Part shown: positions 2,486-29,346 of the stretch, in pieces
How the letters are laid out: each line of letters begins with the position of its first letter
Position numbering within the stretch: position 1 is the stretch's first letter
Source: a virus
Taxonomy: Duplodnaviria; Caudoviricetes
Virus record (IMG/VR): IMGVR_UViG_3300012953_006567
Span: 1-35,972 of that record
Strand: one strand, 5' to 3'
Length of the DNA: 35,972 nucleotides
Made by a program: the position numbers and the translations under genes
Notes under the pieces: model-generated
What the model saw: only the letters and a program-made list of their open reading frames with translations
Databases searched by the model: none
Told to the model about the DNA's origin: nothing

Positions 2486-2487
2486 AA

Positions 2488-11187: not shown

Positions 11188-11196
11188 AAATTCTCC

Positions 11197-12627: not shown

Positions 12628-12628
12628 A

Positions 12629-12826: not shown

Positions 12827-12838
12827 TTACATACTCCA

Positions 12839-12864
12839 TATATACATATATAAGTATATACTTA
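12839..12864 (-). promoter_or_regulatory. Putative phage promoter motif TATATATGTATATA plus overlapping 14-bp palindrome TAAGTATATACTTA
   Basis: The 14-mer at 12839-12852 is identical to 35127-35140; perfect palindrome at 12851-12864; intergenic. Confidence 0.55.
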
Positions 12865-13266
12865 ACTTAAAATAGTTACTTTTTTATTTAATTTTTGTGC
12901 TTCTTTTATAGTATCCATCGTACCCTTTGTATATCTATCCTTTGGCATAAAAGCTATAATAACATCACTATACTCCGCTATCTGTTTATTCCTATCATTA
13001 AAATTACCTGGATAGTATTTCTTACCATAATGATCTCTTTCTAATATACAATGTTGATTGTAAGCATAATGTCTCGGTGGAAACTCCACATACTTCATAT
13101 CAAACTCTAATGCGTATTTTTTAGCATAACCATCGGCACCCTTTGGTTGTCCACCACTTACAATCTCAACTTTTTCTTCAAATTGTTCTTTTAATTTATA
13201 TACAAACTCTTTTACTTTCCTTTTGTTTGTATATGTACGAGAACCTATTATACCAACTCGTTTCAT
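12862..13266 (-). CDS. SLOG-family (DUF2493/YspA-like) protein
   Basis: VGIIGSR, IVSGG-x-PKGAD, RNKQIAEYSD, KGT motifs. Confidence 0.8.
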   Translation of the reverse strand: MKRVGIIGSRTYTNKRKVKEFVYKLKEQFEEKVEIVSGGQPKGADGYAKKYALEFDMKYVEFPPRHYAYNQHCILERDHYGKKYYPGNFNDRNKQIAEYSDVIIAFMPKDRYTKGTMDTIKEAQKLNKKVTILS

Positions 13267-14081
13267 TATACAACTGCCCTACCTTTCATTCTTTCCCAAT
13301 CTCTATTCTTTCTTACTTTATCATTTACACTAAGAACCGATTTTAATAACTCTGAATCAAACTCACTAACTATAGCTGAAACATCTTTAGGTAAACAATG
13401 TCCACCAAATCCACAATCACCATCGGGACCTGGAACTGCCCAATGTGATTTACCAAGTCTTTCATCATATGCTGAATACTCTACTACTTTATCATAATCA
13501 ATTCCTATCTTATCACATACTATTTTCATTTCATTTGCAAATGATACTTTGGTTGCAAGAAATGAATTAATAAAATATTTTACCATTTCAGCAGTTTTAC
13601 TTCCTGTCTTAACAATAGTTGCACTTGGAAATACCTTACTATAAACTTGTCTTAATTTATTAGTTCCTTTTCTTGTACCACCCAATATGATACGAGTCTG
13701 ATTTTTAAAATCTTCAAGAAAATTCATCTCGGTAAGAAACTCCGGATTGAATATAACATTTACATTTTTGTATTTTTTATGTAGTCTTTCAGTTGTACCG
13801 GGTGGTACCGTAGATTTAATTACCACGATTATCTTTCTATTACTTAACTCATCTATTTCTTTTACAACACTTTCTACCACCCCGGTATTGCAACTTCCGT
13901 TTCTATTCATTGGTGTTGGAACACATACAAATATGATATTACACCTCTCGACCATCTTACTTAGATCAGAGGTACTTTTATTTTTATCATACTTGTCATA
14001 AGTTTCTACATCATAATAAGATTCAAATCCCACCTTAATAGCAGTTCCTACATAACCCTGTCCTACTATTCCTATTTTCAT
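13266..14081 (-). CDS. UDP-glucose/GDP-mannose dehydrogenase family (short form)
   Basis: GIVGQGYVG, FVCVPTP, IKSTVPPGTT, NPEFL, AEMVKY, GFGGHCLPKD (catalytic Cys). Confidence 0.9.
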   Translation of the reverse strand: MKIGIVGQGYVGTAIKVGFESYYDVETYDKYDKNKSTSDLSKMVERCNIIFVCVPTPMNRNGSCNTGVVESVVKEIDELSNRKIIVVIKSTVPPGTTERLHKKYKNVNVIFNPEFLTEMNFLEDFKNQTRIILGGTRKGTNKLRQVYSKVFPSATIVKTGSKTAEMVKYFINSFLATKVSFANEMKIVCDKIGIDYDKVVEYSAYDERLGKSHWAVPGPDGDCGFGGHCLPKDVSAIVSEFDSELLKSVLSVNDKVRKNRDWERMKGRAVV

Positions 14082-16161: not shown

Positions 16162-16190
16162 AATTTACAAACAATTTTTAACAAAGTCAA
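16162..16190 (-). promoter_or_regulatory. Sigma70-like promoter
   Basis: TTGACT (16190-16185), 17 nt, TAAATT (16167-16162), followed by AGGAGA SD and ATG at 16137. Confidence 0.55.
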
Positions 16191-16783
16191 GTAATAATTT
16201 CATCAATAATACCATATTCTAAACATTCTTTTGCCGTCAAATATGTATCGTGTTGTGAAACCTTATCCCAAAACTCTTGGTCTTTATTTGTAACTTCTGC
16301 AAGTATTCTATTAATATTTTTTTGTAATTTTTTTAGATGGTCGGCTCCTTTTAGTACATCAGATGTTTTACCCGACTCAAATGCTGAACCCTCGTGAACC
16401 ATCACAGTGGAATTTGCGGTCATTGTTCTCTTACCAGTTCCACACGCAAGTATTACTGCTGCAGCTGACATTGCAGCCCCAAGACAATGTGTGTTGACCT
16501 TGATTGGTAGAGTTTTGAAATAATCAATTATTCCCAACATAGAATATACATCACCACCATATGATGCAATTACTAAATTTAATTCTTTAGCGTCATTGTA
16601 GTGTATCATACTATCAAATCTCGTCATTGTTGCATAAAGTGTGTCCTGTTCTATATCGTAAGTCAAATACATTGTATTTGTCTCTAAATCAATTCCCCAT
16701 TCCAATTGTTTAAATAGTTTTTGTGTGGTTGGGTGAACATTCGTCATACTGGCATAATTCACTTTTAATATTGGATCACTCAT
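16187..16783 (-). CDS. clpP: ClpP-like serine protease (paralog 2)
   Basis: IASYGGDV, GAAMSAA (Ser), VMVHE (His), DTYLTAKECLEYGIIDEI (Asp). Confidence 0.85.
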   Translation of the reverse strand: MSDPILKVNYASMTNVHPTTQKLFKQLEWGIDLETNTMYLTYDIEQDTLYATMTRFDSMIHYNDAKELNLVIASYGGDVYSMLGIIDYFKTLPIKVNTHCLGAAMSAAAVILACGTGKRTMTANSTVMVHEGSAFESGKTSDVLKGADHLKKLQKNINRILAEVTNKDQEFWDKVSQHDTYLTAKECLEYGIIDEIIT

Positions 16784-17874
16784 TTAATCTCCTTTTTAAA
16801 GACAAAAACTGGTTCATACTTATAACCTGCTCCCATCACGCTTGATAATGTTAATTGTAAGGAATCCTCTTGTATGAATCCTAATTCCTTAGAAATTTTT
16901 ACTGTTTCTTCTTCTATAAATTTATACTTTGGTGTGTTGGCAATGTTTATTAACATATAACCATTTTGTTTTAAACCAATGTAACAATTCTCTAATGTTT
17001 TTCGTAAAAAACCATTTACCCAACTATCTTCTGTTGAGTATTTTATATAACTTTGAGTTTCCTCATCTGAGTATTTCTCTGTATCGAAATAAGGTGGTGA
17101 GGTAAAACATAAATCGATTGATTCTTTTTTAGGAACGAAGTCCTCACTTCCTTGTTTATATATATCAACCTTTTTATTTATGTATGAGAAATCCTTGCAC
17201 ATTTTCATCAACCCATTGTAAGTTTGTGTGGATGGTTCAGTACCTATGTAGTGTTTGGTGTTTTTAGCGGATAAAAAACCTAACAATCGACCACCCCACC
17301 CACAACTCATATCTCGTATTACTCCATCACCACCATACTTTTCATATATAAGTTTGGCAGCAGTTGGTCTAAAATTACTCACGGATTGAGTACCACTGTA
17401 AATTTTTATTGATTGTCTTAGTCTATTTTCATGAAAAATATTTCTTTCCCCATTAGGATCCTCTCCCTTGTAGTGTTTCTGTTCCCACTTCCAACATTTT
17501 CTGATTGTTGATTTAAACATTTTATCATCATGAAATATATCCATTGGTGAGTTTTTAGCACTACCACATACCACTTCCCAAAAATGTGGAAAGTAAGTCC
17601 AACACAACCTCAAACCATGCATAGTTTGGATAATCTGATTATCCTTGAATATGGTATCCACATCAAACTTTCTCAGTTTCTTTAAATGGTCGTGTTTTTC
17701 TTCTTCACGAATTGTGTAATGAGGGAAACCATGCCTACGATAGTAATCAAATATGATTTCCACACCATACTCGATATCCACCACATCTATTGAATTAGTA
17801 ACCCTTTCAAACTCCAAGTCTTTCTCATCCACATCGATGAGTTTACCGAGAGTTTCGTAGTTTACTCTTGCCAT
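16780..17874 (-). CDS. Putative amino (N4C/N6A)-type DNA methyltransferase, paralog 3
   Basis: SNFRPTAAK, DMSCGWGGRLLG (motif I), FTSPPYF (motif IV), EKYS. Confidence 0.8.
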   Translation of the reverse strand: MARVNYETLGKLIDVDEKDLEFERVTNSIDVVDIEYGVEIIFDYYRRHGFPHYTIREEEKHDHLKKLRKFDVDTIFKDNQIIQTMHGLRLCWTYFPHFWEVVCGSAKNSPMDIFHDDKMFKSTIRKCWKWEQKHYKGEDPNGERNIFHENRLRQSIKIYSGTQSVSNFRPTAAKLIYEKYGGDGVIRDMSCGWGGRLLGFLSAKNTKHYIGTEPSTQTYNGLMKMCKDFSYINKKVDIYKQGSEDFVPKKESIDLCFTSPPYFDTEKYSDEETQSYIKYSTEDSWVNGFLRKTLENCYIGLKQNGYMLINIANTPKYKFIEEETVKISKELGFIQEDSLQLTLSSVMGAGYKYEPVFVFKKEIK

Positions 17875-18317
17875 TAGGGTAGATTTAGTTTCTTGATTTC
17901 CTTTGGTTCAGTTCCAAATTTTTGAAGTATAGACTTTAACTCAGCCTTACCTTGTTCGGAACTATAATAGATTTCTAAGTACTCGTTGGCCTCTTTTACA
18001 CTAACCTCGTGATACTTTGTAATAATTTCAACAACCCAAGTTGGATGTTTCATAACCTTTTTTCCTTTGGTATACCTCAACCATTCCTTTTTCTTAGGAA
18101 GAACATTGGTGTATAGCTTGTATAATTCTTTTGGTTTCAGATTGTATCTCTGAAACTCATTTACGATTTCCACATACTCCATCTTCATAGATAAGAATCT
18201 ATGTATCATATAGTTAGACCAAGTTTTTCTATCGGCATCATTAATATCATCCCAATAGTTTTTGGTTTGTTTTTGTGTGATATGTGTTATGTGATCAAAT
18301 AGTGATTTTGTTTTCAT
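17874..18317 (-). CDS. Clamp loader small subunit (T4 gp62-like)
   Basis: LFDHI, YMIHRFLSM, VNEFQ, LPKKK-x-W-x-RY-x-K, Y-x-VS-x-KEA-x-EYL match the gp62 pattern. Confidence 0.75.
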   Translation of the reverse strand: MKTKSLFDHITHITQKQTKNYWDDINDADRKTWSNYMIHRFLSMKMEYVEIVNEFQRYNLKPKELYKLYTNVLPKKKEWLRYTKGKKVMKHPTWVVEIITKYHEVSVKEANEYLEIYYSSEQGKAELKSILQKFGTEPKEIKKLNLP

Positions 18318-18340: not shown

Positions 18341-19174
18341 TCAAATATCGAATTTATTTATGCCCTTTTCTACCCAATCCTTATCGGTCAATCTTTGATG
18401 TCCTCGTAGCCATAATTTTTCATGTTCTGATTTTGAAATTTTATCTTCTGTGATTTTTAAATTCAATTTTTTAATGAATGAATTAATCACATTACTATCG
18501 AATTCTTTTTGATTAATATTAGGATTCTTTTCTAACAACCCACCGATAACATCCGAAACATCTCCTTCAAATTTCAAATTGTCCACTTCTTCATCTCTTA
18601 AATACATAGATTTCAATGTTTTTTTATAATCTAAGTCTCGTATTTTATTTGCTAAATCTGTATGTAGTGAATAACTAATAGCAACACTTGTTTCTACCCA
18701 ATCAAAAACAGATATCTTACCATTACCAATGGCCTTTTTCCATTTACCATCAATCTTGAACAAAGTATCATTTCTACCACTTTGTTTGGTTTCAATACCA
18801 TATTTACCACACTCTTTACTAACCGTATCGATTAATAAATCAAGAGTTTTATCAGGTTCAAGTTTACTGAACAATGTTATGTTGGTGATTTGTGGGCCTT
18901 CAAGGTAGAAAGCTATATTTTCATTTGGAGTTTCTCTCCAATTATCCTCAACTAATATTGTTGCATCAAAGGTTCGTATTTTATCTTCTAATTTTTCTAA
19001 AATGTGTGTTAAATCAGTTGGATAGATACCAAAAAATGTTGCAGTTTCTTTCTCCAATGACCAACGAATCAAAGTTGGTTGTTCGATTTCTACTATATGC
19101 TGGTATTCCCAAATTCCTACATGAACCTCTGGTGAAACCAATCCCAAGTCTACATATCTAACTTGATTTTCCAT
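18341..19174 (-). CDS. Divergent lipoate-protein ligase (BPL/LplA/LipB superfamily)-like protein
   Basis: N-terminal YVDLG, PTLIRW, GRND...KKAIGNG (conserved Lys). Lacks the RRxSGGG motif. ORF track extends to 19216. Confidence 0.6.
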   Translation of the reverse strand: MENQVRYVDLGLVSPEVHVGIWEYQHIVEIEQPTLIRWSLEKETATFFGIYPTDLTHILEKLEDKIRTFDATILVEDNWRETPNENIAFYLEGPQITNITLFSKLEPDKTLDLLIDTVSKECGKYGIETKQSGRNDTLFKIDGKWKKAIGNGKISVFDWVETSVAISYSLHTDLANKIRDLDYKKTLKSMYLRDEEVDNLKFEGDVSDVIGGLLEKNPNINQKEFDSNVINSFIKKLNLKITEDKISKSEHEKLWLRGHQRLTDKDWVEKGINKFDI

Positions 19175-19637
19175 TCCATTCAGAATAGTCGGTATAATCT
19201 TCGAATAATTCCTCACCTTTGACTATATCACGGTTGGATACATACTTGAAATCCCTACTACCAATTACCTCTACATCAAGGTTTGGTGTATCAGAATGAT
19301 TTTGAAAGAACCAATTGGATTGCCAATTCAAACCTTTGGTCGTGTACATCCATATCTTACCATATTCTTCTTTCCAAGTGAAGTCTTTATTGTTTGGTTT
19401 TGTTCCAACACTAATTTGAGTATCGTAGATACATTGAATTAACCCATCACAAAAGTGTGAAACATCTTTCCAATCCACCCATACTCGAATACTCCTATCA
19501 CATTTATCATACACACTTGTACCTTTTGGAATATCTCTAATTGCAACACTACCAACTCCATCACATATTGTTGATGGCCAAGGACGAGCCCATATGTGAT
19601 TTTCGTACCAGTCTATAACAAAATCCTTATTGGTCAT
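19158..19637 (-). CDS. SET domain protein (lysine methyltransferase fold)
   Basis: GVGSVAIRDIPKGT, FQNHSDTPN, RDIVKGEELFEDY. ORF track extends to 19655. Confidence 0.88.
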   Translation of the reverse strand: MTNKDFVIDWYENHIWARPWPSTICDGVGSVAIRDIPKGTSVYDKCDRSIRVWVDWKDVSHFCDGLIQCIYDTQISVGTKPNNKDFTWKEEYGKIWMYTTKGLNWQSNWFFQNHSDTPNLDVEVIGSRDFKYVSNRDIVKGEELFEDYTDYSEWNGKSS

Positions 19638-20535
19638 ACACCACTTCTTTTTCATTGTAGATTAGATATATACCACTTGAAATTAAAAGTAATCCAAATA
19701 TTTGCCATAATGATGGAGTCATGGTTAGAAAGAAATAACCGAGTGATACTCCAAATATAGGTGTTCCTAATTCAACAATACTTGTATTAGTTGCACCAAT
19801 ATTCTTTACCGCTATCCAATAACAAAGATAAGCGATAAAACTTGCCACTACTGAAATGTAAGTGATTGCAAGTAATCCGTTAAATGTAACTTCTGAAATC
19901 GTTGTAGTGGGTGATTGAAATAATGAAACATAAACAAACACACTCAAAAAATCATAAAATACAATTGTAAGTGGTTTGTACTTTTTCATAATACCTTGTC
20001 CTACTATGAGATAGGCTACCCAAGTCAAACAGGCTGCAACATCTAATAACACACCTTTAGTGTTTAGACCTTCAAGTGAGAATGATGGTATCAATTCAAT
20101 GGCAAACATACAACCGAGTGTTCCCAATCCTAATGCAATCTTCCTATTATTACTAAATTTCTCCCCATAGTAAAATATGGAAATCAAACATAGTATGAAT
20201 GGATACATATAAAATATTGCATAAATCACAGGTAGGTTCGGGTCAAGTAATTCCCAAGCAAACCAATACACCAATAAGTGTGCTGCAAGTATTACACCAT
20301 TGATAAAAAATTGTTTTCTATCTTCCTTCTCAACATAAAACAAATTTTCGCCTGTTGTTTGTTTCTTCCATAACATCACCCCACCAAACAATAATGTGGC
20401 GATTAGAAATCTAACCGATAGAACTGATACGGGTCCTGCTCCTTCTGCAAATATAAAACTACCAGTTACTTCGAGAGTTGACCAAGCGAATACTGCAGTC
20501 GCTATTGCTATAAATCCTTTTAAAAATTTATTCAT
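19627..20535 (-). CDS. EamA/DMT family transporter
   Basis: About 10 hydrophobic segments in two repeats; VRFLIA, Y-x-YP, IGATNTSI, P-IFG motifs. Confidence 0.88.
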   Translation of the reverse strand: MNKFLKGFIAIATAVFAWSTLEVTGSFIFAEGAGPVSVLSVRFLIATLLFGGVMLWKKQTTGENLFYVEKEDRKQFFINGVILAAHLLVYWFAWELLDPNLPVIYAIFYMYPFILCLISIFYYGEKFSNNRKIALGLGTLGCMFAIELIPSFSLEGLNTKGVLLDVAACLTWVAYLIVGQGIMKKYKPLTIVFYDFLSVFVYVSLFQSPTTTISEVTFNGLLAITYISVVASFIAYLCYWIAVKNIGATNTSIVELGTPIFGVSLGYFFLTMTPSLWQIFGLLLISSGIYLIYNEKEVVYDQ

Positions 20536-21403
20536 TTTCTTTTCCTACCTTTAAAGTAAAACCATAATACAATTTAACCTTTAAATCACCTTCTCCACTT
20601 AATTCAGCAGAAACAAATTGATTGGATTCTCCATACTGATACACAACACCATAAAGTGCTTGTGTTTCATCTTCGGTTCTTTCCAAACCACCAATTAGTC
20701 CTAAACCTTTTAGATGCCACATATTAGGTAGTCTAATAACGGCTCTTCCCCATTGATAATCTTCTCTAAATTCTGTAACATAATCTACAAACTCACTATA
20801 TCCACTTATATCAAGTGCCTGTTTGTTTTGGTCATCAAGTGATACACCAACAAAGTGATCACCAAACTCATAACTCACACGACCTGATGTGTATTCCTCG
20901 AATCCATTTTCTATATCACTACCGTAATAGCTTTCTAAGAACCACTTACCAACTCCACCATAGATAGTAACACCATCTCCAAAATATAACAAACCAACAT
21001 CGTTAGGTGTTGGTGTTTGATAGGTAAATTTATCACCTCTTGTTAAATCCAAATATGGAACATTAGAACCAAATGGAATTGGTTGTCTACCCAAAACAAC
21101 CGTGAACTTATCGGTATAAGGTTTGTAGTATAACTCCTCGACATAAACACTACCTCTCGCCCAAGGTGCGTCCAAGAACATCGATATTCCCCACTTTGAA
21201 TCATCGCCCTTTATGAATGACCAAACATATGGCTTCTCAAAAACAAAATGGTCTTTATATTCATCACCATTTCTATCATCACTACCTTCTGGATCATATT
21301 TCTCACTAATCGTAGTGTATCCTACTATACTATTTTTGATTGTTGCCATCTGTGAAAATCCAACGGTAAAAAAACATAATAGTATAGTTACTATTTTATT
21401 CAT
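20528..21403 (-). CDS. Secreted protein, probable outer-membrane beta-barrel (porin-like)
   Basis: Signal peptide MNKIVTILLCFFTVGFS/Q; VEELYY..VVLGRQPIPFG; alternating aromatic/Gly strands; ends YYGFTLKV plus a short tail. Confidence 0.6.
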   Translation of the reverse strand: MNKIVTILLCFFTVGFSQMATIKNSIVGYTTISEKYDPEGSDDRNGDEYKDHFVFEKPYVWSFIKGDDSKWGISMFLDAPWARGSVYVEELYYKPYTDKFTVVLGRQPIPFGSNVPYLDLTRGDKFTYQTPTPNDVGLLYFGDGVTIYGGVGKWFLESYYGSDIENGFEEYTSGRVSYEFGDHFVGVSLDDQNKQALDISGYSEFVDYVTEFREDYQWGRAVIRLPNMWHLKGLGLIGGLERTEDETQALYGVVYQYGESNQFVSAELSGEGDLKVKLYYGFTLKVGKENE

Positions 21404-21920
21404 AACTAAACTCCATGTTTATAGATATTCTATATTCCTTCCCATATATAAAATTTGTTGTATGGTATAACCAATTTGGAAAAACAACCAATGAATTTTC
21501 AATCGGTCTATGTGAAAACTCGTTAGATTCTTCTTTGAATGTTATCTCACCCCCAACCATACCTTTTGGTACACTTAGATAGTACACCCCAACCATACTA
21601 TCCGAAGTAGTGATGTGATTGTGCCAATTTAACGGACAATAATCTTCATTATTCACCATAGGGAAATATCGTCTTTTGTATGAAATTGGTCTATCATAAG
21701 TATCAAAGTTATCCTTACAAAACTCAATAAATTTAGCGTACAAATCTTTGAATATTCCCTCATCAGTATCGGTCATTACATTGTAACCAGCATTATCAAA
21801 CACTTCATTATAGTAGATTTCAACGATGTTTTTCCTTGAAACTTCTATTGGTGAGTTTTTGAAATCCAAAAAATTTAACTCTTGATATACAGGTAAACTA
21901 TTATGTATTTGTTTCATCAA
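21396..21920 (-). CDS. Putative 2OG-Fe(II) oxygenase
   Basis: WHNH, GVYYL, GGEI, FPNWLYH, RISINM. Confidence 0.8.
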   Translation of the reverse strand: MMKQIHNSLPVYQELNFLDFKNSPIEVSRKNIVEIYYNEVFDNAGYNVMTDTDEGIFKDLYAKFIEFCKDNFDTYDRPISYKRRYFPMVNNEDYCPLNWHNHITTSDSMVGVYYLSVPKGMVGGEITFKEESNEFSHRPIENSLVVFPNWLYHTTNFIYGKEYRISINMEFSYE

Positions 21921-22614
21921 GTTTTCTCAATTCTTCTATGTTAGGAATTAATTCATATGTTTTATCTGTTTTGTAACACTTTTCCGATACCATCAAATCA
22001 CCAATAATATCATTTAGAAAAGTGTCCTCAACATCAATATCTAACTTTCCTAATAAATCACAAAAATTGTTACGATGTTTATCAGTATAACTATTTCTCG
22101 AAAATAAATCCTCATAACTATACACTATAAAATCATCATCTATAAAATTTAAAAAATATCCCATTTTATCTCTTACATCATCTATTTTTTGTCTTACAAT
22201 ATCAACATCTATCTCATTAAATTCATATCCACTTTTATAAACTTTATGTCGACCAATTGGTGCAACCCAATGATTGGTTTGTATTGCAAGTTCTTCTGAT
22301 ATAACCTTTTCCCAAATGTTTTCCCTATGTAATAAAATCTTCTGAATTGGATAATCTAATAATTCATCTATTATATTGAAAAATGCTGGTTCGTCCCAAT
22401 TTATCTTACATCCACTATATTGGTCAAATAATTCATTCAAACACCAAGTTGAATTATAATCCCAAATATTTTTTGGAAATGGTAAATCAAATTGTTTCCA
22501 AGTTCTTGGTGGTGCATCAAACCAAACAAATTTTTTATTACTCAATTGACTTATAGCATTCATCAGATGATTCGAACCTGTCCTTTTCATCGACAATAAC
22601 ATAAATTTATTCAC
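21901..22614 (-). CDS. Sulfotransferase (Stf0-like)
   Basis: 5'-PSB loop MKRTGSNHL, 3'-PB R-x-N...S (HRENIWEKVIS), YEDL. Confidence 0.8.
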   Translation of the reverse strand: MNKFMLLSMKRTGSNHLMNAISQLSNKKFVWFDAPPRTWKQFDLPFPKNIWDYNSTWCLNELFDQYSGCKINWDEPAFFNIIDELLDYPIQKILLHRENIWEKVISEELAIQTNHWVAPIGRHKVYKSGYEFNEIDVDIVRQKIDDVRDKMGYFLNFIDDDFIVYSYEDLFSRNSYTDKHRNNFCDLLGKLDIDVEDTFLNDIIGDLMVSEKCYKTDKTYELIPNIEELRKLDETNT

Positions 22615-23026
22615 TTACAAATCCACACCTTAAAACTATTTCATGACTTGGTTTATTCCATTCATCAATCTGTGACCATATAAAATCATGTTTTAGTTTA
22701 GAAATGTTAAGAATATACCACATCATTTGTATACCATAACCTGCACCTCTTTGTGATTTCTCCACATATAAATTTTTACATTCTTTTGTGTTATTGTCCA
22801 TCCAAACCCAACCATCACAATTTTTTAAATTTAAGAAATCCCAACCATTATTTAATCTATGTTCAGCATCGTCTACATTCCACATCAAATCCCAATTCAA
22901 CTCTGATTGAAATTTCTCAATGGACTTTTCCAATTTGTACTTATTTATTTCTCTTACATATTCTACATTATGTACATTTGGACAGAATGTGTAATCTTCT
23001 AAGTATCGTGTGTATTTAATCATCAA
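22607..23026 (-). CDS. GNAT family acetyltransferase
   Basis: LYVEKSQRGAGYG (motif A), N-x-PS...GF (motif B). Confidence 0.75.
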   Translation of the reverse strand: MMIKYTRYLEDYTFCPNVHNVEYVREINKYKLEKSIEKFQSELNWDLMWNVDDAEHRLNNGWDFLNLKNCDGWVWMDNNTKECKNLYVEKSQRGAGYGIQMMWYILNISKLKHDFIWSQIDEWNKPSHEIVLRCGFVSE

Positions 23027-23660
23027 AAAATGAATCTAAATATTCAGACTTTCTATCATCCTCAGTTTTACTGGGCAATCCAAGAAATTTTCTCTTATCA
23101 TACTTGTATTCACTAAATTCACCATTCTTTCTAACATAATGTATGAATAACTGAACACATTCGTAACCTGAAAAAGGTAATCTCCAATGATTCATCGTTG
23201 TACCTGAGTAAAAACACATATCACCCATTTCAAGAATAATAGATTTGGATGGTGATGATCTTGCAGATTCCTCAAACCCCTCTGGTCCATACTTTTCAAA
23301 GTCGTACTTTTGCATCATAATAGGCCACTTTTTATCGAAATATATCGGTAAGGTAGCACTAAATTCACAAGAGGGTCTATCACAATGTGGTTCTAAAATA
23401 TCACCTTTGTTGTAGATTCTCAAAAAGGTATAACAAGGATACAACTCCTCACCAATTACACTTTCGGCTATCGGTAGAGTCCACTTCAATATAGCATCAT
23501 TTAATGTATCACCATACATTGTGATGGTACCAGGTACCTGTTGGGCATCTAAATCGAACTCACTGTTGTGTATTTTTATCTGATAATAATTGTATATTAA
23601 TTCGAGTACATCTTTGTGTATAACATTACTCTTGACTTCATAACCATTTTTACTGAACAC
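23016..23660 (-). CDS. 2OG-Fe(II) oxygenase (phage type)
   Basis: RIYNKGDILEPHCDRPSCEFS (HxD), GDM..Y.G...HWR, QLFIHY. Confidence 0.82.
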   Translation of the reverse strand: MFSKNGYEVKSNVIHKDVLELIYNYYQIKIHNSEFDLDAQQVPGTITMYGDTLNDAILKWTLPIAESVIGEELYPCYTFLRIYNKGDILEPHCDRPSCEFSATLPIYFDKKWPIMMQKYDFEKYGPEGFEESARSSPSKSIILEMGDMCFYSGTTMNHWRLPFSGYECVQLFIHYVRKNGEFSEYKYDKRKFLGLPSKTEDDRKSEYLDSFFDD

Positions 23661-23661
23661 A

Positions 23662-24153
23662 TTAACTCCAAGGTGGTATTACATAAGGTCCTTCTGATGA
23701 AGTTGCCGGTACTAAATAACTCTCGGTCAAAACCTCATCTTCAAAATGACGATATTTGTAGTAGGAACCCGTATCATAATTTGAATTGAATGAATGAGTT
23801 GCTTCGGTATCCTCTATTGCCAAGGTGTAGACCTCTTCGAAATGAGATTGACTCATATGAGAAGCACTCACCATAAGGGTTGCTAAACCATCATCTAACT
23901 CATTTTTCCACCAAGACCAACTGCCTGTTAAATCAGTAACATTATCAAATGTATGAATTACTTGTCTTGCTGCCACACATGGTTTTTGGTCTACTATATC
24001 TGCTATAGCTATTGGGGGCATAAAAGAACCACTTGGTGGTGGATATCCGTAATCAATAGGTTCATCGGACAAGTAAACACTACCTGATTCATCAACTTGA
24101 ATTGATGAGGTGTTCATTAGTAGATGACCCGATATCTTAAATGTTTTTGGCAT
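23662..24153 (-). CDS. Hypothetical acidic protein with many [S/T]-x-S motifs
   Basis: 163 aa, AGGA SD; TSSI, SGSV, SGSF, TGSW, SASH, SQSH, THSF, TGSY, TESY, TSSE. Confidence 0.7.
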   Translation of the reverse strand: MPKTFKISGHLLMNTSSIQVDESGSVYLSDEPIDYGYPPPSGSFMPPIAIADIVDQKPCVAARQVIHTFDNVTDLTGSWSWWKNELDDGLATLMVSASHMSQSHFEEVYTLAIEDTEATHSFNSNYDTGSYYKYRHFEDEVLTESYLVPATSSEGPYVIPPWS

Positions 24154-24165
24154 ATTTAATTCCTA

Positions 24166-26835
24166 TTAATTTTCAAATTGACCACCCTCATGGTAGGCTC
24201 GATTATTAGGATGACCACTATTAATATTTACCGCCATTGCTCCAACTTGAGCTGAAGGTAAAACCGTATCCCAAATCAAAACCTTAGACCATATCCAATC
24301 CCCATCTGAACTCGATGGATTCGGATACGCATTACCACCAAACGATACGGTATTACTTGGTGCCCGTGGATTTGATTGTGGTGTTGGAAAAGCGTGAGTG
24401 GTTTGCATCACACCAGCTACAAACGGACTTGGTTGGTCGAAATCTTGATACCATCCCACACGAGGATTTGATGATTGTAGAGTCAACGCCATAAATTTTT
24501 GTTTAGCATAATATTGTGTGGTTTTGGGTGATGGTATGGCAAATGCTGCATCAGCAAAAGGTGCTGCATCAAATCCAACAGGTACGGTTTGCCAAGTTTG
24601 AGAAGGACCTAAATACACATAGGTTTGTGCTCCTGGTCCTGATTGACCTGGATAAACTGCCATATCACCATTTGTACTCGGTGAGTGACTCATCCATCTT
24701 CTCCGAGTTGGTGAGTTTGGGTAATGTGTGTTCGTGCCTGGCCAACTACCTGGTCTGATATATGGGCCTCTTGCATATGCAAACATATATGTTGTTGGAT
24801 CCTGAGAACTAAATAATGCACCGGTATGATAGGGATTACCTGGCTGTTTAGTCAATCTGGCTCCCTTGTAATTCTCAGGTAAAGGTATAGCTTTAAACTC
24901 AGGATTTGGATACTTTGGTTGAATAGCTGGATAGTTTGAAATTGTTTGATTTGCCTTTTGATTTGGACTCGATGAAGTAGTCGTGTGTATGGTTAAGTCA
25001 GCATCCAACCTCGTTGTTAAATCATATATGGTGTTATCAGGACTTGAAAAACTACTTGGGTGACCAATATCCCAATGTCCTATTATCTGTGGGCCACTTG
25101 TGAGACTATATTGTGCCGGGCCATTGTGTACTTTTAACCGATTCATAAAGTAATTCTCGGTGGGTAAAATATCGTAAATATCCCAATGTGATTTTTTACC
25201 AGGTACTTCTTTCATACTCACTACCCTACACGGTACCATTGCACCATAAAGAGCCTGTGTGATTTTCATATCCTTTCTCTTCGGTGTAAGACAAATCATA
25301 CCAGGTCTCAACTTCATTACCATCATGTTCTTCACTTCGTAGGTAAGTTCAGGTTTGTAAGAAGCCCAACCATAAGTGGGTTTATCCTTTTTTATACCAG
25401 CCTCATTATGAGTTCCAAATATTTCCTTACCATCGGTTCTATCCATACGAATATTAAACTCTTGTGAGTTTATCACCTTTAATGGTTTTTCAAATAAAAA
25501 TTCACTTGTGAAGTAAGTTCCACTACACTCGAATGTTATCTCCACAACCCTTTCTGGCATTTCTGAATCTTTTGCCCTTGCAAGTATTGCAGAAACTATC
25601 TTGTCCTCTTCACTACTCAGAACAGATTGACCTTCCAATGGATTTGTTATTATACCATCGATTCCACTAATAAAATTATCTGATTTTGCCTGTATTTGAA
25701 ATCCGTGATAATTTAAAGAGTTGTCTAATGTTGTAATACCCTTTACTCTTCTTCGTTCTTTGATGATTTCAATCTTTTCTACCTTTACTTTCTCACCATC
25801 TCGAAGTAAAACATCACCTACTTTCAATAGATGAATAGGTTTGAAATCACCCCTATTATTTTGATACACCAATATTGAACACGAATGGACGAACTCAAAT
25901 TCGTCATTTATTTTAAAATGTCTGTAATGAAATGGATGTACCCTTTCGATTTCCTTATTTATAATGTTTTCATCTACCTCATCATTCAAGAATAAGTTGG
26001 AATGGTCTATTCTGTTTGGAAACTTTGAATTTTCGTGTTCGTGATAATCGTATAATTGAGTATAAACATTTGGAGTCATGTTGTAGGAGTGCTTACGAAA
26101 CATCATTGAGTAATGTTTTACCTCCACATTAAAGCCCGTTTGATAGTCTAAATCACTCTGTATAAACTCTTCCACATAATCATACTCGGATAATTTAGAC
26201 AAAAAGTCTTTTTTGGTATCGAATTTAGATATAGATATACCACTCTTCTTATCTATGTCGCGTTTTTTGAAAACAAAGTACTTCCCTTTCTCATAAATAT
26301 CTTTACCTGAATCCGGAGTAGAAAGAGATTCTTTTTGTAAAAGTCTTTTGAATGCCAACTTATCTTCTGCAAACTTATCAATTGGACAATTTTTATCCCA
26401 AGCAATTCTTAATATGAAATCTCTTCTATCATAATCAAAATTCCATATATCTTCCCCCTTCCAAGGATCATATGTTTGTATTCTTACAGGTGTGTCTTTA
26501 CTTAATAATTGTAACTCCTTGAACCACTTTCCATTTTCAGTAATTTCTCGTGTTCTTTCTTCAATTAAAACAATTATACTTTTATACTCCCACTTCTTCA
26601 CAATTTCAAATATTGGATTGAAGTCGAACCAATCCACTAAATCATCATCAACTGCGGTATTAGTGTTTATTTCTGTAATATATGGTTCGTATTCTCTTGG
26701 AATTATATCCCAGCAATACAATAACGCTTCATTTCTTTTGAGAAAACTTTTATCTCTGAGAAAGAAATGTTCAATATGATCTACTGAATTGTGAACGATG
26801 TGCTTGTAAACTATTTTATCAAATATACTTTTCAT
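24166..26835 (-). CDS. Multidomain protein: circularly permuted ATP-grasp-like + Hint domain(s) + Pro-rich LamG/ConA-like domain
   Basis: D43...EINTNT, FVFKK...GISI, VEEFI; KPIHLLKVGDVLL; GWASYKPELT...NYFMNRLKVHN (N571); then IGHWDIGHPSSF...IYDLT and SKVLIWDTVLPSAQV. Confidence 0.65.
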   Translation of the reverse strand: MKSIFDKIVYKHIVHNSVDHIEHFFLRDKSFLKRNEALLYCWDIIPREYEPYITEINTNTAVDDDLVDWFDFNPIFEIVKKWEYKSIIVLIEERTREITENGKWFKELQLLSKDTPVRIQTYDPWKGEDIWNFDYDRRDFILRIAWDKNCPIDKFAEDKLAFKRLLQKESLSTPDSGKDIYEKGKYFVFKKRDIDKKSGISISKFDTKKDFLSKLSEYDYVEEFIQSDLDYQTGFNVEVKHYSMMFRKHSYNMTPNVYTQLYDYHEHENSKFPNRIDHSNLFLNDEVDENIINKEIERVHPFHYRHFKINDEFEFVHSCSILVYQNNRGDFKPIHLLKVGDVLLRDGEKVKVEKIEIIKERRRVKGITTLDNSLNYHGFQIQAKSDNFISGIDGIITNPLEGQSVLSSEEDKIVSAILARAKDSEMPERVVEITFECSGTYFTSEFLFEKPLKVINSQEFNIRMDRTDGKEIFGTHNEAGIKKDKPTYGWASYKPELTYEVKNMMVMKLRPGMICLTPKRKDMKITQALYGAMVPCRVVSMKEVPGKKSHWDIYDILPTENYFMNRLKVHNGPAQYSLTSGPQIIGHWDIGHPSSFSSPDNTIYDLTTRLDADLTIHTTTSSSPNQKANQTISNYPAIQPKYPNPEFKAIPLPENYKGARLTKQPGNPYHTGALFSSQDPTTYMFAYARGPYIRPGSWPGTNTHYPNSPTRRRWMSHSPSTNGDMAVYPGQSGPGAQTYVYLGPSQTWQTVPVGFDAAPFADAAFAIPSPKTTQYYAKQKFMALTLQSSNPRVGWYQDFDQPSPFVAGVMQTTHAFPTPQSNPRAPSNTVSFGGNAYPNPSSSDGDWIWSKVLIWDTVLPSAQVGAMAVNINSGHPNNRAYHEGGQFEN

Positions 26836-26838
26836 ATC

Positions 26839-26850
26839 TATAAATATATA
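26839..26850 (-). promoter_or_regulatory. Putative phage promoter TATATATTTATA, 3 nt before ATG
   Basis: One mismatch to the motif at 12841 and 35129; in a 30-nt intergenic gap with no SD. Confidence 0.5.
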
Positions 26851-26865
26851 TTATTACGAAAAATG

Positions 26866-27501
26866 TTATTTAAAACATGGGCCGTGTATCCAAGTAACTA
26901 TTGAATATCGGTTTCCCTTTGTTACAGGTTTGACTGCATGCATTAAATATGAAGGAAAAAATATTATAGTTCCCGCAGTTTTAGGATAGTGGATTATATC
27001 AGTTCCATCGTGATTTTTACCCACTCCATCAAATACTAATTCACCACCTTCATAATCATCATTTACTAATATTGTACAGGATAGTTTTCTAAAACACGAT
27101 GGTGCTGCTCCACCGACATCCATATGAAAATCGTATTTTCCTTTTTCATTACTATCGTATCTTAGATATATTGAGGTTTCAAGAAATCCGTGTAAATCAA
27201 ACCCATAAACATTCTGATTGGCACTCCAAACCAATTCCTCTAACTTTTGATAAAACCAGTCAAATTCTCTTATGTGTGGTATTGGGGTTTCATATGCAAC
27301 TCTTTCAGAATCCTCGCCCCTTTGACCAAAACTAGCATCTCCATGAGTAAGAGCAGGGGTTTCTTCTAAATCCCCAATCTTTAAAAGTTGCTTTAACCTT
27401 TTTAACTCGAATTCATTATATGCACCCTCAATAGCAAATGGGAAACTCAATTCTCTCTGTGAGAGTTCCATAGTTTTTGATAATATTCCAGCTCTTAACA
27501 T
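26866..27501 (-). CDS. 2OG-Fe(II) oxygenase, prolyl 4-hydroxylase/PKHD-type
   Basis: YDFHMD (HxD), RKLS, YEGGEL, FPSYLMHAVKPVTKGNRYSIVTW. Confidence 0.9.
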   Translation of the reverse strand: MLRAGILSKTMELSQRELSFPFAIEGAYNEFELKRLKQLLKIGDLEETPALTHGDASFGQRGEDSERVAYETPIPHIREFDWFYQKLEELVWSANQNVYGFDLHGFLETSIYLRYDSNEKGKYDFHMDVGGAAPSCFRKLSCTILVNDDYEGGELVFDGVGKNHDGTDIIHYPKTAGTIIFFPSYLMHAVKPVTKGNRYSIVTWIHGPCFK

Positions 27502-27954
27502 TTAATTCTCCAATTTAATTTCTTTATATTTTTTCTTTTCATGTTCTGAGACATCCAACCTCCATTCAAAATCAGGTTTCATACTCACATCGAATACACT
27601 ATCGAAAATAAATAAAGATTTATCCGACATTGGTTTATGTTCGATTACTCGTTTGGTGAAAAAACCACCCTTCCATAACTGAAAGGTCAAAAATTGATGA
27701 GTTTTCTCTTGGGATTTCTCGTAATAAAATATTTTGGTATTGTATTTTTCATCATCGAACTTATAGTAAATAGATTTACCCAATCTTCTTTCCGTTTCCC
27801 TTGAAAAATCCTTTAAGTGTGATTCTATTAATCCGATAAACAATTCATTATTCTGATAATTATCTTCTTTAATCAAATCATCTAATAAGAAATTGTCTCG
27901 GCAAAAATATATTAACGAACCTATTACATTTGGAACTACTTGATATGGATTCAT
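27502..27954 (-). CDS. Hypothetical protein
   Basis: ATGA-coupled ORF (ORF track extends to 27972); no recognised motif. Confidence 0.6.
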   Translation of the reverse strand: MNPYQVVPNVIGSLIYFCRDNFLLDDLIKEDNYQNNELFIGLIESHLKDFSRETERRLGKSIYYKFDDEKYNTKIFYYEKSQEKTHQFLTFQLWKGGFFTKRVIEHKPMSDKSLFIFDSVFDVSMKPDFEWRLDVSEHEKKKYKEIKLEN

Positions 27955-28487
27955 ATCGTGTTTCCTGCACAAACATATCTTGAACCTGAGAATTTTTTAG
28001 GTTTCACTTCATGTGATACCCAACCAGGAAAAAATAATAAATTACCTCTTTCACTATATATTTTTCTACCATCTTGTATTTCTAATGGTGGAAAATCTTC
28101 GGATTCATTTAGGTTCATACAAAAAGACCACCTACAAGGTCTATGATTGTGTTCTCTTGCATAATCATCACTCTTATATTTAGCACACCAGATATCCGAA
28201 ACTTTAAGGTGTAACTTATTTTCAATCAATATGTTCTCAACGATACCTATCATATCTTCGAAAATATCCTTATATTTAGAATTTAGTTGTGTTTTATATT
28301 CTGTCATCTGACAGAAAAGATTTGTGGTAAACCCCATTTCATCACCAGTCTCATCCATCATTGATATTAACGAATCAAGTAATATATCATCATTTACTTT
28401 ATACTTGATTATTGGTATTGGAAATGACCTTTCATACCAACCAACATCAGGTGTAATACACTCTATTCTATGTTCCGAGTCCGACAT
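27951..28487 (-). CDS. Putative 2OG-Fe(II) oxygenase
   Basis: W...Y...AREHNH, WSF, LLFFPGWVSHEV, RYVCAGN. Confidence 0.8.
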   Translation of the reverse strand: MSDSEHRIECITPDVGWYERSFPIPIIKYKVNDDILLDSLISMMDETGDEMGFTTNLFCQMTEYKTQLNSKYKDIFEDMIGIVENILIENKLHLKVSDIWCAKYKSDDYAREHNHRPCRWSFCMNLNESEDFPPLEIQDGRKIYSERGNLLFFPGWVSHEVKPKKFSGSRYVCAGNTI

Positions 28488-28728
28488 CGTTCATAATTGT
28501 CGTGGGTACTTTACCACAATTCCCACAACTATAGATATCAATTGGTGCAAGAGCCTCTTCACCCGTTGGTGACATGATTGCAGATATTCGTTTGATTATA
28601 GTTGCCTTTATCCAAACATAGTTATCACAATCCTCACATTTCATAGTTTCAGCCTGAGATAGATCAACTTGTACTTTCTGAGGTTGTGGTTGTTGACCGG
28701 GTTGAGGTTTAAATTTTCTTTTTGCCAT
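28468..28728 (-). CDS. Small Zn-ribbon protein
   Basis: CEDC...CGNCG; AGGAG SD. Confidence 0.75.
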   Translation of the reverse strand: MAKRKFKPQPGQQPQPQKVQVDLSQAETMKCEDCDNYVWIKATIIKRISAIMSPTGEEALAPIDIYSCGNCGKVPTTIMNDVGLGT

Positions 28729-28737
28729 TTTTTCTCC

Positions 28738-29346
28738 TTAAATTATTTCGTCAATTAACCCATACTTTAAACAGGTTTCAGCATCCCATAATAAATCGTG
28801 TTTCAATATTTCATCAAGTTTCTTCATTGGAACTTTAGTATATTTCTTATACACATCTTTAATGGTTTTCATCATCAAATCAAGATTCTGTTTCTCATCC
28901 TCGAAATTAGAGTATGTTCCCCAAAACTGACTTGATAGTTGATGAATCAGCATATAGGAATTACGACTCATAAATCTATAATTACCCACCACCGATAGGA
29001 ATGTTGCTGCACTTGCTGCAAATCCATCTACATATGTATGAACAGGTACCTTAGTTCTTAATATAGTATCCATAGATGCTATACCACTAACTACACTACC
29101 ACCACCTGAATTTATGTATATTCTTAAAGTTGGTGGTACTTCTAAATCCAATGTATTACATAGAGTCAAACTCTTCGTTTCAATTTCACCTATCTTTTTA
29201 TTAAGTTCAGATGCACTATCTCTATTCACATTTGAATAATAATAAATTTTATTCTCGTGAACTGAAATATGTTTTTCTGATTTATTAGAGGTATTTACAG
29301 TTTTTAATGTGGGTGATTTTTTCTCACCCCAATATCTTTGTTCCAT
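28738..29346 (-). CDS. clpP: ClpP-like serine protease (paralog 1)
   Basis: YINSGGGSV, GFAASAA (Ser), MLIHQ (His), DLLWDAETCLKYGLIDEI. Confidence 0.88.
   Translation of the reverse strand: MEQRYWGEKKSPTLKTVNTSNKSEKHISVHENKIYYYSNVNRDSASELNKKIGEIETKSLTLCNTLDLEVPPTLRIYINSGGGSVVSGIASMDTILRTKVPVHTYVDGFAASAATFLSVVGNYRFMSRNSYMLIHQLSSQFWGTYSNFEDEKQNLDLMMKTIKDVYKKYTKVPMKKLDEILKHDLLWDAETCLKYGLIDEII

What the first reader, a model, noticed from the sequence alone, without database searches (positions are those of the whole stretch)
18341..28487. ~10 kb tailoring-enzyme island between the clamp-loader subunits: candidate undescribed phage modification or biosynthetic system
Seen: 13 co-oriented genes comprising four 2OG-Fe(II) oxygenases, an ATP-grasp-like/Hint/LamG-like protein, a Ser/Thr-motif protein, GNAT, sulfotransferase, porin-like protein, EamA transporter, SET protein, LplA-like ligase and one unknown. 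Known: T4 genes 44 and 62 are adjacent, and these families hydroxylate, ligate, acetylate, sulfate and methylate peptides or small molecules. Inference: either a post-translational decoration kit for a self-released Pro-rich (virion) protein, or a RiPP-like/small-molecule pathway with its own transport route. I know of no described system with this composition.
Basis: partly seen in the sequence, partly recalled or inferred. Interest (0 to 1): 0.82.

Follow-up and report, generated by a model that had tools for sequence, protein, structure and literature searches.

The report
Self-cutting phage ligase-Hint-lectin kit
A marine T4-like phage carries, at a swappable genome site, two separable gene modules: one built around an undescribed protein that joins an ATP-driven ligase fold, two intein-like domains and a lectin fold, which likely cuts off the lectin and likely has it chemically decorated by its neighbours, and a second that likely imports a small molecule.

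Summary
The site between the Zn-ribbon gene and gp62 is empty in 29 of 64 distinct related loci and filled in 35. The fill here splits in two. Module A (unknown, 2OG oxygenase, 889-aa polyprotein, Ser/Thr protein, 2OG oxygenase, GNAT, sulfotransferase) keeps its order in all 17 islands with the polyprotein, down to 35% identity (one lacks the sulfotransferase). Module B (porin-like, EamA, SET, LplA fold) occurs with A, without it, or elsewhere. The polyprotein is a circularly permuted ATP-grasp (glutathione-synthetase/YgiC class), two Hint domains and a fast-evolving LamG domain. Hint 2 keeps only the C-terminal cleavage residues (His-Asn|Gly-Pro, 26 of 26). It belongs to an almost wholly viral family with swappable cargo: six-Cys peptides, repeats, LamG, S74 chaperone. 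All 18 filled islands lacking it hold another family member, 8 of them truncated. Best reading (45%): a self-released, ligated and decorated binding protein, probably on the virion. Cleavage, ligation and location are inferred. No paper found; earlier scan notes cover the peptide form.

The parts
28468..28728 (-). Zn-ribbon gene, upstream flank of the variable site (not part of the island)
   Evidence: present before gp62 in empty and filled loci
27951..28487 (-). 2OG-Fe(II) oxygenase d (2OG-FeII_Oxy_5 type), accessory to module A
   Evidence: Pfam E 1e-5, PHROG 81 E 2e-19; in 11 of 17 polyprotein islands, 0 of 18 others
27502..27972 (-). Module A: unknown 156-aa protein
   Evidence: no family hit; a homologue in 17 of 17 polyprotein islands, 0 of 18 others
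26866..27501 (-). Module A: 2OG-Fe(II) oxygenase c, PKHD/PiuC (prolyl-hydroxylase-like) type
   Evidence: Pfam PF13640 E 5e-14, PiuC E 4e-6; directly upstream of the polyprotein in 17 of 17
26005..26835 (-). Polyprotein residues 1-277: circularly permuted ATP-grasp ligase fold
   Evidence: VIA Z 10.6-12.5, rmsd 4.2-4.6 A over 231-256 residues, to glutathione synthetases, YgiC, GspS, Cp1B; D43, E55, N57, K159, K190, E222, E238 invariant in 26 of 26
25681..26004 (-). Polyprotein residues 278-385: Hint domain 1, catalytically degenerate
   Evidence: VIA Z 8-9, rmsd 2.3-2.6 A over about 105 residues, to inteins and Hedgehog; position 1 is Leu here (Cys in 13 of 26), last residue Ala/Ser/Thr instead of Asn
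25123..25677 (-). Polyprotein residues 387-571: Hint domain 2, predicted to cut only at its C-terminus (Asn571|Gly572)
   Evidence: profile match to intact Hint domains of relatives, E 1.6e-5, probability 79%; only partly modelled (AXH Z 5.3); H570-N571-G572-P573 and D552 invariant, Asn in place of Cys1 in 26 of 26; best-conserved part, 65% mean identity
24166..25122 (-). Polyprotein residues 572-889: LamG / concanavalin-A-like cargo, Pro/Ser/Thr-rich and fast-evolving
   Evidence: VIA Z 15-17, rmsd 3-4 A over 200-250 residues; Pan3 tailspike Z 16.3; phage LamG models in BFVD; 32% mean identity, 11.9% Pro; S74 chaperone fused in P0028
23662..24153 (-). Module A: 163-aa Ser/Thr-motif protein of no known family, candidate partner or acceptor
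   Evidence: just downstream of the polyprotein in 17 of 17, 0 of 18 others; identity tracks the polyprotein, rho 0.88; no named family
23016..23660 (-). Module A: 2OG-Fe(II) oxygenase b (PHROG 2954)
   Evidence: PHROG E 1e-43, H92-x-D94 and H158; 17 of 17 against 0 of 18
22607..23026 (-). Module A: GNAT acetyltransferase
   Evidence: Pfam E 8e-5; 17 of 17, but related GNAT domains also in 12 of 18 other islands and rho only 0.15 with the polyprotein
21901..22614 (-). Module A: P-loop sulfotransferase-like protein (Stf0/NodH-like by motif)
   Evidence: invariant PAPS-binding-type motifs, weak hits; 16 of 17 against 0 of 18
21396..21920 (-). 2OG-Fe(II) oxygenase a, found only at the A-B junction
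   Evidence: Pfam PF13759 E 1e-6; 7 of 17 polyprotein islands, 0 of 18 others
20528..21403 (-). Module B: secreted, porin-like protein (fold not confirmed)
   Evidence: no library hit; followed by EamA in 25 of 26 loci fetched with it, the 26th ends inside the gene
19627..20535 (-). Module B: EamA/DMT inner-membrane transporter
   Evidence: Pfam E 3e-29; weak match to choline transporter LicB, E 0.019; 81% mean identity, the most conserved island gene
19158..19655 (-). Module B: SET-domain methyltransferase
   Evidence: Pfam E 5e-10; GxG, NHS-x-x-PN and ELxxDY motifs present
18341..19174 (-). Module B: LplA/LipB-fold acyl ligase or transferase
   Evidence: Atlas structure TM 0.72-0.75 to LplA-B_cat clusters; R/N-D and K-K-x-x-G motifs invariant in 12 of 12
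17874..18317 (-). gp62-like clamp-loader subunit, downstream flank (not part of the island)
   Evidence: PHROG 225 E 1e-16

Best explanation
The island is a swappable site holding two separable modules, and module A is built around a ligase-Hint-Hint-LamG polyprotein that likely cuts itself at Asn571|Gly572 to release a 318-residue lectin-fold protein, which the fused ATP-grasp likely joins by an amide bond to an acceptor and the neighbouring oxygenases, sulfotransferase and acetyltransferase likely decorate, probably as a host-binding appendage of the virion. Shown: gene content, folds, conserved residues, fixed order of module A, independent movement of module B. Inferred, in falling order of trust: one-sided cleavage by Asn cyclisation (about 70%); an active ligase (about 65%); the cargo or its acceptor as the substrate of the tailoring enzymes, for instance Pro hydroxylation followed by sulfation (about 50%); a place on the virion (about 45%). 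The freed Gly572 amine is my candidate nucleophile and the co-inherited 163-aa Ser/Thr protein my candidate acceptor or adaptor; neither is tested. Module B likely imports a small polar molecule through an outer-membrane channel and EamA and uses the LplA-fold and SET enzymes to acylate and methylate protein lysines; it serves several different fills of this site and is not needed by A.
For: Empty site in 29 of 64 distinct loci; A+B 11, A only 6, B only 11, neither 7 among 35 filled; fills are interleaved on the gp62 tree. Six module A neighbours are in 16-17 of 17 polyprotein islands in one order; unknown, Ser/Thr protein, 2OGb and this sulfotransferase family are in 0 of 18 others. Folds by AlphaFold2 plus VIA. 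Seven ATP-grasp positions and H570-N571-G572-P573 invariant in 26 of 26 homologues at 36-93% identity; these match the assisting His and terminal Asn of intein step 3 with no +1 nucleophile (PMC4031507, passages). Cargo is the most variable part (32% against 65% for Hint 2), resembles phage tailspike and LamG virion proteins, and is followed by an S74 tail-spike chaperone in P0028. The wider family swaps cargo behind the same His-Asn and sits beside 2OG oxygenases in 79 of 80 and sulfotransferase-like genes in 75 of 80 loci of another phage group. In five long records (64-132 kb) PF13640 oxygenases are not scattered: 3 of 4 matches lie in the island, none in the three records without the polyprotein.
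Against: No experiment. Hint 2 was only partly folded by both models, and its C-terminal strands, including the His-Asn, have pLDDT under 50; the block F His is absent (1 of 26), and in some inteins C-terminal cleavage needs the earlier steps (PMC4031507). The Arg two residues before the first Asp, used by glutathione and glutathionylspermidine synthetases (recalled), is Thr/Cys/Val/Ala in 26 of 26. The island lies in the replication operon, about 85 kb from the major capsid gene in the one record that holds both. The +1 residue is variable, including Pro, in the six-Cys relatives, which argues against a general role for the freed amine. The sulfotransferase looks most like sugar or lipid enzymes (NodH, Stf0; weak). 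GNAT does not track the polyprotein (rho 0.15). The island sample is biased: most A islands were fetched with the polyprotein and 10 of 18 others with the porin, so the four counts show that all combinations exist, not their frequencies.
Confidence: 0.45

Rival explanations
1. Module A works inside or on the infected cell: the ligase and tailoring enzymes make a small amide metabolite or modify a host surface glycan or lipid, and the released or retained LamG domain binds that sugar substrate or masks a receptor against superinfection.
For: Cp1B, a fold neighbour (Z 10.6), works with a 2OG oxygenase to make the small molecule E-64 (PMC12568646, abstract and passages). Sulfotransferase leans to NodH/Stf0. 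The island is in the replication operon, and other fills bring AdoMet decarboxylase, DUF1989, glycosyltransferases and an amino acid-carrier ligase. PMC7824862 (passage) proposes capsule decoration or a metabolite for a cyanophage cluster.
Against: Does not explain why a one-sided Hint and a hypervariable, swappable cargo are always fused to the ligase, nor the S74 chaperone behind some cargoes. The polyprotein has no signal peptide (sequence).
Confidence: 0.25
2. The polyprotein does not cleave: both Hint domains are inactive spacers or docking modules and the ligase keeps the LamG domain as its substrate-targeting arm.
For: Hint 1 is degenerate at both ends; Hint 2 lacks Cys1, the block B His and the block F His; several relatives end right after the Hint with no cargo or with His-Ser/Asp-Asn.
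Against: His570-Asn571 is invariant in 26 of 26 at the exact border of the cargo, and every one of 124 wider-family proteins examined has His-Asn at the end of its Hint; Hint 2 is the most conserved domain.
Confidence: 0.15
3. All 13 genes form one pathway with its own import or export route.
For: All 13 genes are in the same order in 5 other distinct islands, and 12 of 13 in L092, whose gp62 is only 48% identical, so the array has moved as a block. SET identity tracks the polyprotein at rho 0.69.
Against: A without B in 6 and B without A in 11 islands; B lies upstream of A, or outside the site, in L097, L099, L100, L121, L123, L124, L127, L128; EamA and LplA track the polyprotein poorly (rho 0.34, 0.27).
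Confidence: 0.08
4. A hotspot of unrelated cargo with no shared substrate.
For: The site and its neighbours take many different genes; 2OG oxygenase arrays are common in marine phages (PMC2938197 section 11).
Against: Order and exclusivity of module A (17 of 17 against 0 of 18 for three genes), correlated divergence (rho 0.56-0.88), and the same enzyme classes around the family in another phage group.
Confidence: 0.07

Closest known systems
Circularly permuted ATP-grasp amide ligases: eukaryotic glutathione/homoglutathione synthetase, E. coli glutathionylspermidine synthetase, YgiC, fungal Cp1B
   Same: Fold over residues 1-277 (Z 10.6-12.5); N-terminal Asp...Glu-x-Asn metal motif and nucleotide-binding lysines.
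   Different: Lacks the Arg before the Asp; 6-11% identity; fused to Hint domains and cargo; almost only viral (161 viral contigs against 1 short contig in 185,579 genomes for the six-Cys branch).
Bacterial intein-like (BIL) domains, Tetrahymena BUBL BIL2, pretoxin HINT of polymorphic toxins
   Same: Hint fold ending in His-Asn before a variable C-terminal module with no +1 nucleophile; the family profile hits BIL2 at E 4e-10 and relatives carry PT-HINT.
   Different: No Cys1; upstream partner is an enzyme, not a secretion stalk or ubiquitin-like repeat; the cargo is a lectin fold, and no immunity-like gene is evident.
Phage multi-dioxygenase tailoring clusters (Synechococcus phage Syn9, S-SSM6a) and bacterial beta-hydroxylase/sulfotransferase/acetyltransferase/tail-collar operons
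   Same: Several unrelated 2OG oxygenases with sulfotransferase, acetyltransferase and a non-enzymatic virion-like protein (PMC2938197 section 11; PMC7824862 passage).
   Different: Those are predictions without a known product and, in the text I saw, have no ligase-Hint-cargo fusion; this window has no halogenase.
Tail spikes with a self-removing S74 chaperone
   Same: Self-processing next to a receptor-binding-type domain; P0028 has LamG plus S74.
   Different: The window's protein has no S74; release is from an N-terminal enzyme block.
Graspetide RiPPs (microviridin type)
   Same: ATP-grasp ligase acting on a ribosomal precursor; tailoring enzymes nearby.
   Different: Different ATP-grasp class (recalled: RimK-like, not permuted); no separate leader-core precursor; the cargo here is a 318-residue folded domain.

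Membership tests
Circularly permuted ATP-grasp ligases (GSH synthetase/GspS/YgiC class) | ATP-grasp fold with the Glu-x-Asn strand moved to the N-terminus | tested here: met
   E55-x-N57 near the start
Circularly permuted ATP-grasp ligases (GSH synthetase/GspS/YgiC class) | Metal and ATP ligands (Asp, Glu, Asn, two Lys, Glu) | tested here: met
   D43, E55, N57, K159, K190, E222, E238 in 26 of 26; their mapping to the known enzymes is by recalled motif, not by a residue-level alignment
Circularly permuted ATP-grasp ligases (GSH synthetase/GspS/YgiC class) | Arg two residues before the Asp that holds the acyl phosphate (recalled) | tested here: not met
   position 41 is Thr 11, Cys 8, Val 5, Ala 2; Arg only in the L014/L016 relatives
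Circularly permuted ATP-grasp ligases (GSH synthetase/GspS/YgiC class) | ATP-dependent amide formation | not testable with these tools
   needs an assay
Inteins (protein splicing) | Cys/Ser1, block B Thr and His, and Cys/Ser/Thr at +1 | tested here: not met
   Hint 2: Asn at 1, no TxxH, Gly at +1; Hint 1: no terminal Asn (residues as defined in PMC4031507)
BIL / pretoxin HINT domains | Hint fold | tested here: met
   Hint 1 by fold; Hint 2 by profile match and a partial model only
BIL / pretoxin HINT domains | Terminal His-Asn before a non-nucleophilic +1 residue | tested here: met
   H570-N571|G572 in 26 of 26
BIL / pretoxin HINT domains | Cys at position 1 (recalled as usual) | tested here: not met
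   Asn387 in 26 of 26
Polymorphic toxin systems | N-terminal secretion module, C-terminal toxin domain, adjacent immunity gene | tested here: not met
   N-terminus is a ligase fold and C-terminus a LamG fold; the downstream small gene has no known family, so immunity is not excluded
Graspetide RiPP clusters | Short leader-core precursor plus non-permuted ATP-grasp | tested here: not met
   no short precursor ORF in the tightly packed island; ligase is the permuted type
LamG / concanavalin-A-like domains | Jelly-roll beta-sandwich | tested here: met
   Z 15-17, BFVD LamG rows; no Pfam PF13385 hit
LamG / concanavalin-A-like domains | Sugar binding | not testable with these tools
   needs a glycan array
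P-loop sulfotransferases (Stf0/NodH) | 5'-phosphosulfate loop and 3'-phosphate Arg...Ser motif | tested here: inconclusive
   motifs invariant, library hits weak (E 0.09-1.1), no model made
Outer-membrane porins | Transmembrane beta-barrel | tested here: inconclusive
   no hit in Pfam, PHROGs, NCBIfam or PDB sequences; no model made
LplA/LipB/BirA cofactor transferases | BPL/LPL catalytic fold | tested here: met
   Atlas TM 0.72-0.75 over 238-248 residues
Syn9-type phage dioxygenase clusters | Tandem unrelated dioxygenases with tryptophan halogenase | tested here: not met
   four oxygenases but no halogenase in the window; the freshwater relatives have one in 50 of 80 loci

The most novel reading that the evidence does not exclude
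A large group of aquatic T4-like and jumbo phages runs a general 'release, ligate and decorate' system: a permuted ATP-grasp ligase carries its own substrate behind a one-sided Hint protease, the cargo is swapped freely (LamG lectin here; six-Cys peptides or repeat domains elsewhere), and after release it is covalently fixed to the virion and hydroxylated, sulfated and acetylated by a dedicated enzyme set. This would be enzyme-driven covalent virion decoration with a changeable binding tip.
Probability: 0.3. Interest if true: 0.9.

Novelty: categorically new. Interest (0 to 1): 0.66.

Why it matters
Marine phages carry arrays of 2OG oxygenases, sulfotransferases and similar enzymes whose substrates have been unknown since they were first noted (PMC2938197, 2010). 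Module A names a concrete candidate substrate, encoded in the same polypeptide as a ligase, and makes the question testable with seven genes in E. coli. The LamG form also shows that the cargo of this family need not be a RiPP-like peptide, which shifts its likely role towards binding and display. A natural ligase plus self-release unit could be a protein-labelling tool. The novelty label applies to module A's polyprotein; the island as a whole is a variable tailoring site of a known kind.

Tried and rejected
Complex prediction of the 163-aa protein with the ligase and LamG domains gave no verdict (score 0.61, one control 0.43); not used. No RNA holder listed for the island. Promoter scan: 62 sites against 61.2 expected, nothing to read; 12 terminator-like sites against 5.0 lie inside genes and were not followed. 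The 163-aa protein does not match the DUF7936 proteins of other fills (hhalign E 0.064), and its Atlas hits are under 0.9. The 156-aa unknown does not match oxygenase d. Single-sequence scan of viral contigs with the polyprotein found nothing; the alignment did. No sequence match of the polyprotein profile in PDB, nor of the polyprotein, P0060 or EamA in 50,697 GenBank phages. Foldseek on the Hint model gave intein rows only at E above 0.001. A Fisher test of A against B (p 1.0) was computed but is not relied on, because of how the loci were fetched. The gp62 tree is the quick one; the careful search did not finish. Iyer et al. 2009 on ATP-grasp amidoligases is not held and may bear on novelty. 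Botulinum and tetanus toxin rows in the fold lists reflect the shared LamG fold only.

Full report
Setting. The window is a whole 36-kb contig of a T4-like phage: gp43, gp45, gp44 and gp62 homologues, two ClpP, three methylases and a glycosylation block. One metagenome record, L101, is the same sequence. The nearest cultured phages, by a conserved glycosyltransferase, are Microcystis phage Mel-JY01, Flavobacterium immuto phages and Rhodothermus phage RM378 at 26-50% identity; the host is unknown. Long related records suggest genomes of about 180-210 kb (120-132 kb at 63-66% completeness).

Observation. All 13 ORFs are present, co-oriented and tightly packed. The labels hold for the four oxygenases, GNAT, EamA, SET and the LplA fold. 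The sulfotransferase rests on motifs. The porin is unconfirmed.

The site. I fetched 80 loci with gp62 (the best 80 of 360), 21 viral and 33 metagenome loci with the polyprotein alignment and 26 with the porin alignment. 106 span the Zn-ribbon gene to gp62; 64 remain after removing near-copies, the window's own record included. In 29 the interval is 0-964 bases; in 35 it is 3.6-13.4 kb. Close relatives hold very different fills: L001 has a 93% identical gp62 but a 41% identical polyprotein.

Two modules. In all 17 islands with the polyprotein, the order unknown - 2OGc - polyprotein - Ser/Thr protein - 2OGb - GNAT - sulfotransferase is kept, with occasional extra genes; L092 lacks the sulfotransferase. 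The unknown, the Ser/Thr protein, 2OGb and this sulfotransferase family occur in 0 of the 18 other filled islands; weak 2OGc-like genes occur in 4 and GNAT-like domains in 12. Pairwise identities of these genes follow the polyprotein (Spearman 0.56-0.88, GNAT 0.15) and not gp62 (-0.01 to 0.23); the pairs are not independent. Porin-like - EamA - (DUF1989) - SET - LplA is a second block with its own fixed order: with A in 11 islands, alone in 11, missing from 6 A islands and from 7 others, and placed after A, before A or upstream of the Zn-ribbon gene. 'Missing' means not in the stretch held; the contigs are fragments. The counts are shaped by how I fetched the loci. On a quick gp62 tree of 46 of the 64 loci the island types are interleaved (A+B needs 8 changes for 11 rows). 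Against a clean split: all 13 genes keep the window's order in 5 other islands and 12 of 13 in a distant backbone (L092).

The polyprotein. AlphaFold2 on 26 homologues (pLDDT 64.7) gives residues 1-277 the fold of glutathione synthetase, GspS, YgiC and Cp1B, and 575-881 a LamG fold. A second model (22 sequences, pLDDT 63.7) gives 278-385 a Hint fold. Residues 387-571 were only partly folded but match intact Hint domains of four relatives by profile (E 1.6e-5; those relatives pass Pfam PT-HINT or Hint families). Hint 1 has lost its terminal Asn. Hint 2 has Asn for Cys1 and no block B or block F His, but keeps Asp552, His570 and Asn571, followed by Gly-Pro, in 26 of 26. By the intein chemistry in PMC4031507 (passages) it cannot splice; Asn cyclisation would release the cargo. 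That step is inferred. The ligase keeps seven invariant acidic, Asn and Lys positions but lacks the Arg of the known enzymes (recalled).

The wider family. A search of 1.84 billion representatives gave 38 hits, among them ligase-Hint proteins with one to three Hint domains and different tails: none, Cys-rich peptides, repeats. A profile of 15 such proteins found 365 more; I examined the 119 newly listed plus 5 earlier ones, and nearly all carry a 25-35-residue six- or eight-Cys peptide after His-Asn, some followed by an intact Hint or an S74-like segment. This branch was found in 161 viral contigs and in 1 short contig among 185,579 prokaryote genomes. In the 80 viral loci kept, 79 have a 2OG oxygenase, 75 a sulfotransferase-like gene and 50 a tryptophan halogenase nearby. 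Back at the window's site, all 18 filled islands without the polyprotein hold a family member: 10 a full ligase-Hint protein, 8 only a 190-230-residue N-terminal half. Five of the reference proteins came from these loci, so their membership rests on alignment A3 and the profile search. In five long records the family gene is single and at this site, and PF13640 oxygenases are not scattered. The constant of the site is thus the ligase gene; cargo and tailoring set change together.

Mechanism. I commit to release, ligation and decoration of a binding protein, probably for the virion (45%). The cargo is the most variable part, is Pro-rich, resembles phage tailspike and LamG proteins, and can carry an S74 chaperone. 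The strongest points against are the position in the replication operon, 85 kb from the capsid gene in one record, the sugar-type look of the sulfotransferase, and the weak model of Hint 2. A metabolite or host-surface role is the main rival (25%); E-64 synthesis shows that a 2OG oxygenase and this ligase class can make a small molecule (PMC12568646, abstract and passages).

What is known. PMC2938197 (passages and section 11 in full) describes phage dioxygenase arrays and hydroxylase/sulfotransferase/acetyltransferase/tail-collar operons; PMC7824862 (passages) describes a cyanophage halogenase cluster. Neither text, as far as I saw it, has a ligase-Hint fusion; their supplements were not read. 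Nine full-text searches listed no paper on this layout. Iyer et al. 2009 was not available. This scan's own notes hold 26 findings on the ligase-Hint-Cys-peptide form and one on a small lectin-like tail, none listed on the LamG form or on module B. They are unchecked AI notes and not independent support; I had reached the family and its C-terminal tag before reading them.

Verdict. Observation confirmed; interpretation partly supported. Module A is a coherent, undescribed unit; module B is a separate passenger; the 13-gene single pathway is unlikely. Interest 0.66.

Noticed in passing
L159-L238, genes around the ligase-Hint-peptide gene: The tailoring enzymes share a C-terminal tag, Lys-x(0-4)-two hydrophobic residues (like KKTLI): 553 of 585 proteins in eight enzyme clusters against 23 of 218 others. 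By inspection of the printed C-termini, the window's island proteins lack it. Earlier scan notes report the same tag.
   Followed up: partly
P0130-P0248: The six-Cys cargo peptides mostly end in Lys or Lys-x; in four (P0179, P0204, P0243, P0245) an S74-like segment starts right after a Lys, so self-removal would leave the same end (cleavage position recalled).
   Followed up: partly
L009:3673-4993, L013:6633-7953: A different channel plus transporter pair (DUF5020 and Vut_1) sits beside another ligase-Hint gene at the same site: an independent import unit like module B.
   Followed up: no
L014:5054-6421, L016, L064, L068: A seryl-tRNA-synthetase-like amino acid-carrier ligase (NF005479, E 4e-20, below cut-off) lies directly before another ligase-Hint gene.
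   Followed up: no
L002:2833-4933, L138, L139, L148, L150, L152, L154: B-only islands often carry a truncated ligase (190-230 aa), a GNAT-QueC-like fusion and an AdoMet decarboxylase before the porin-like gene.
   Followed up: partly
window 206-14081: A separate surface-modification block: GDP-mannose dehydratase, UDP-sugar dehydrogenase, several glycosyltransferases, FabH, a short-chain reductase, hexapeptide acyltransferase, PhyH dioxygenase, DegT aminotransferase and an Mpo1-like protein.
   Followed up: no
   Followed up: no
window 16187-16783 and 28738-29346: Two ClpP-type proteases flank the island.
   Followed up: no
L099:3301-14693: One island holds two family members, a ligase-Hint protein with a 67-residue Cys-containing tail and the LamG polyprotein, with module B and a glutaredoxin-sulfotransferase fusion between them.
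   Followed up: partly
L123:1113-2981: A 622-aa protein with a deaminase-like start (by motif), a nucleotidyltransferase and a ligase-family C-terminal part; its relative P0063 hits NTP_transf_2.
   Followed up: no
L060:2031-4733, L066, L076, L079: Distant relatives carry a 900-aa protein that looks like a TonB-dependent receptor (by its N-terminal sequence) between gp44 and the Zn-ribbon gene, which would point to a Bacteroidota-type host.
   Followed up: no
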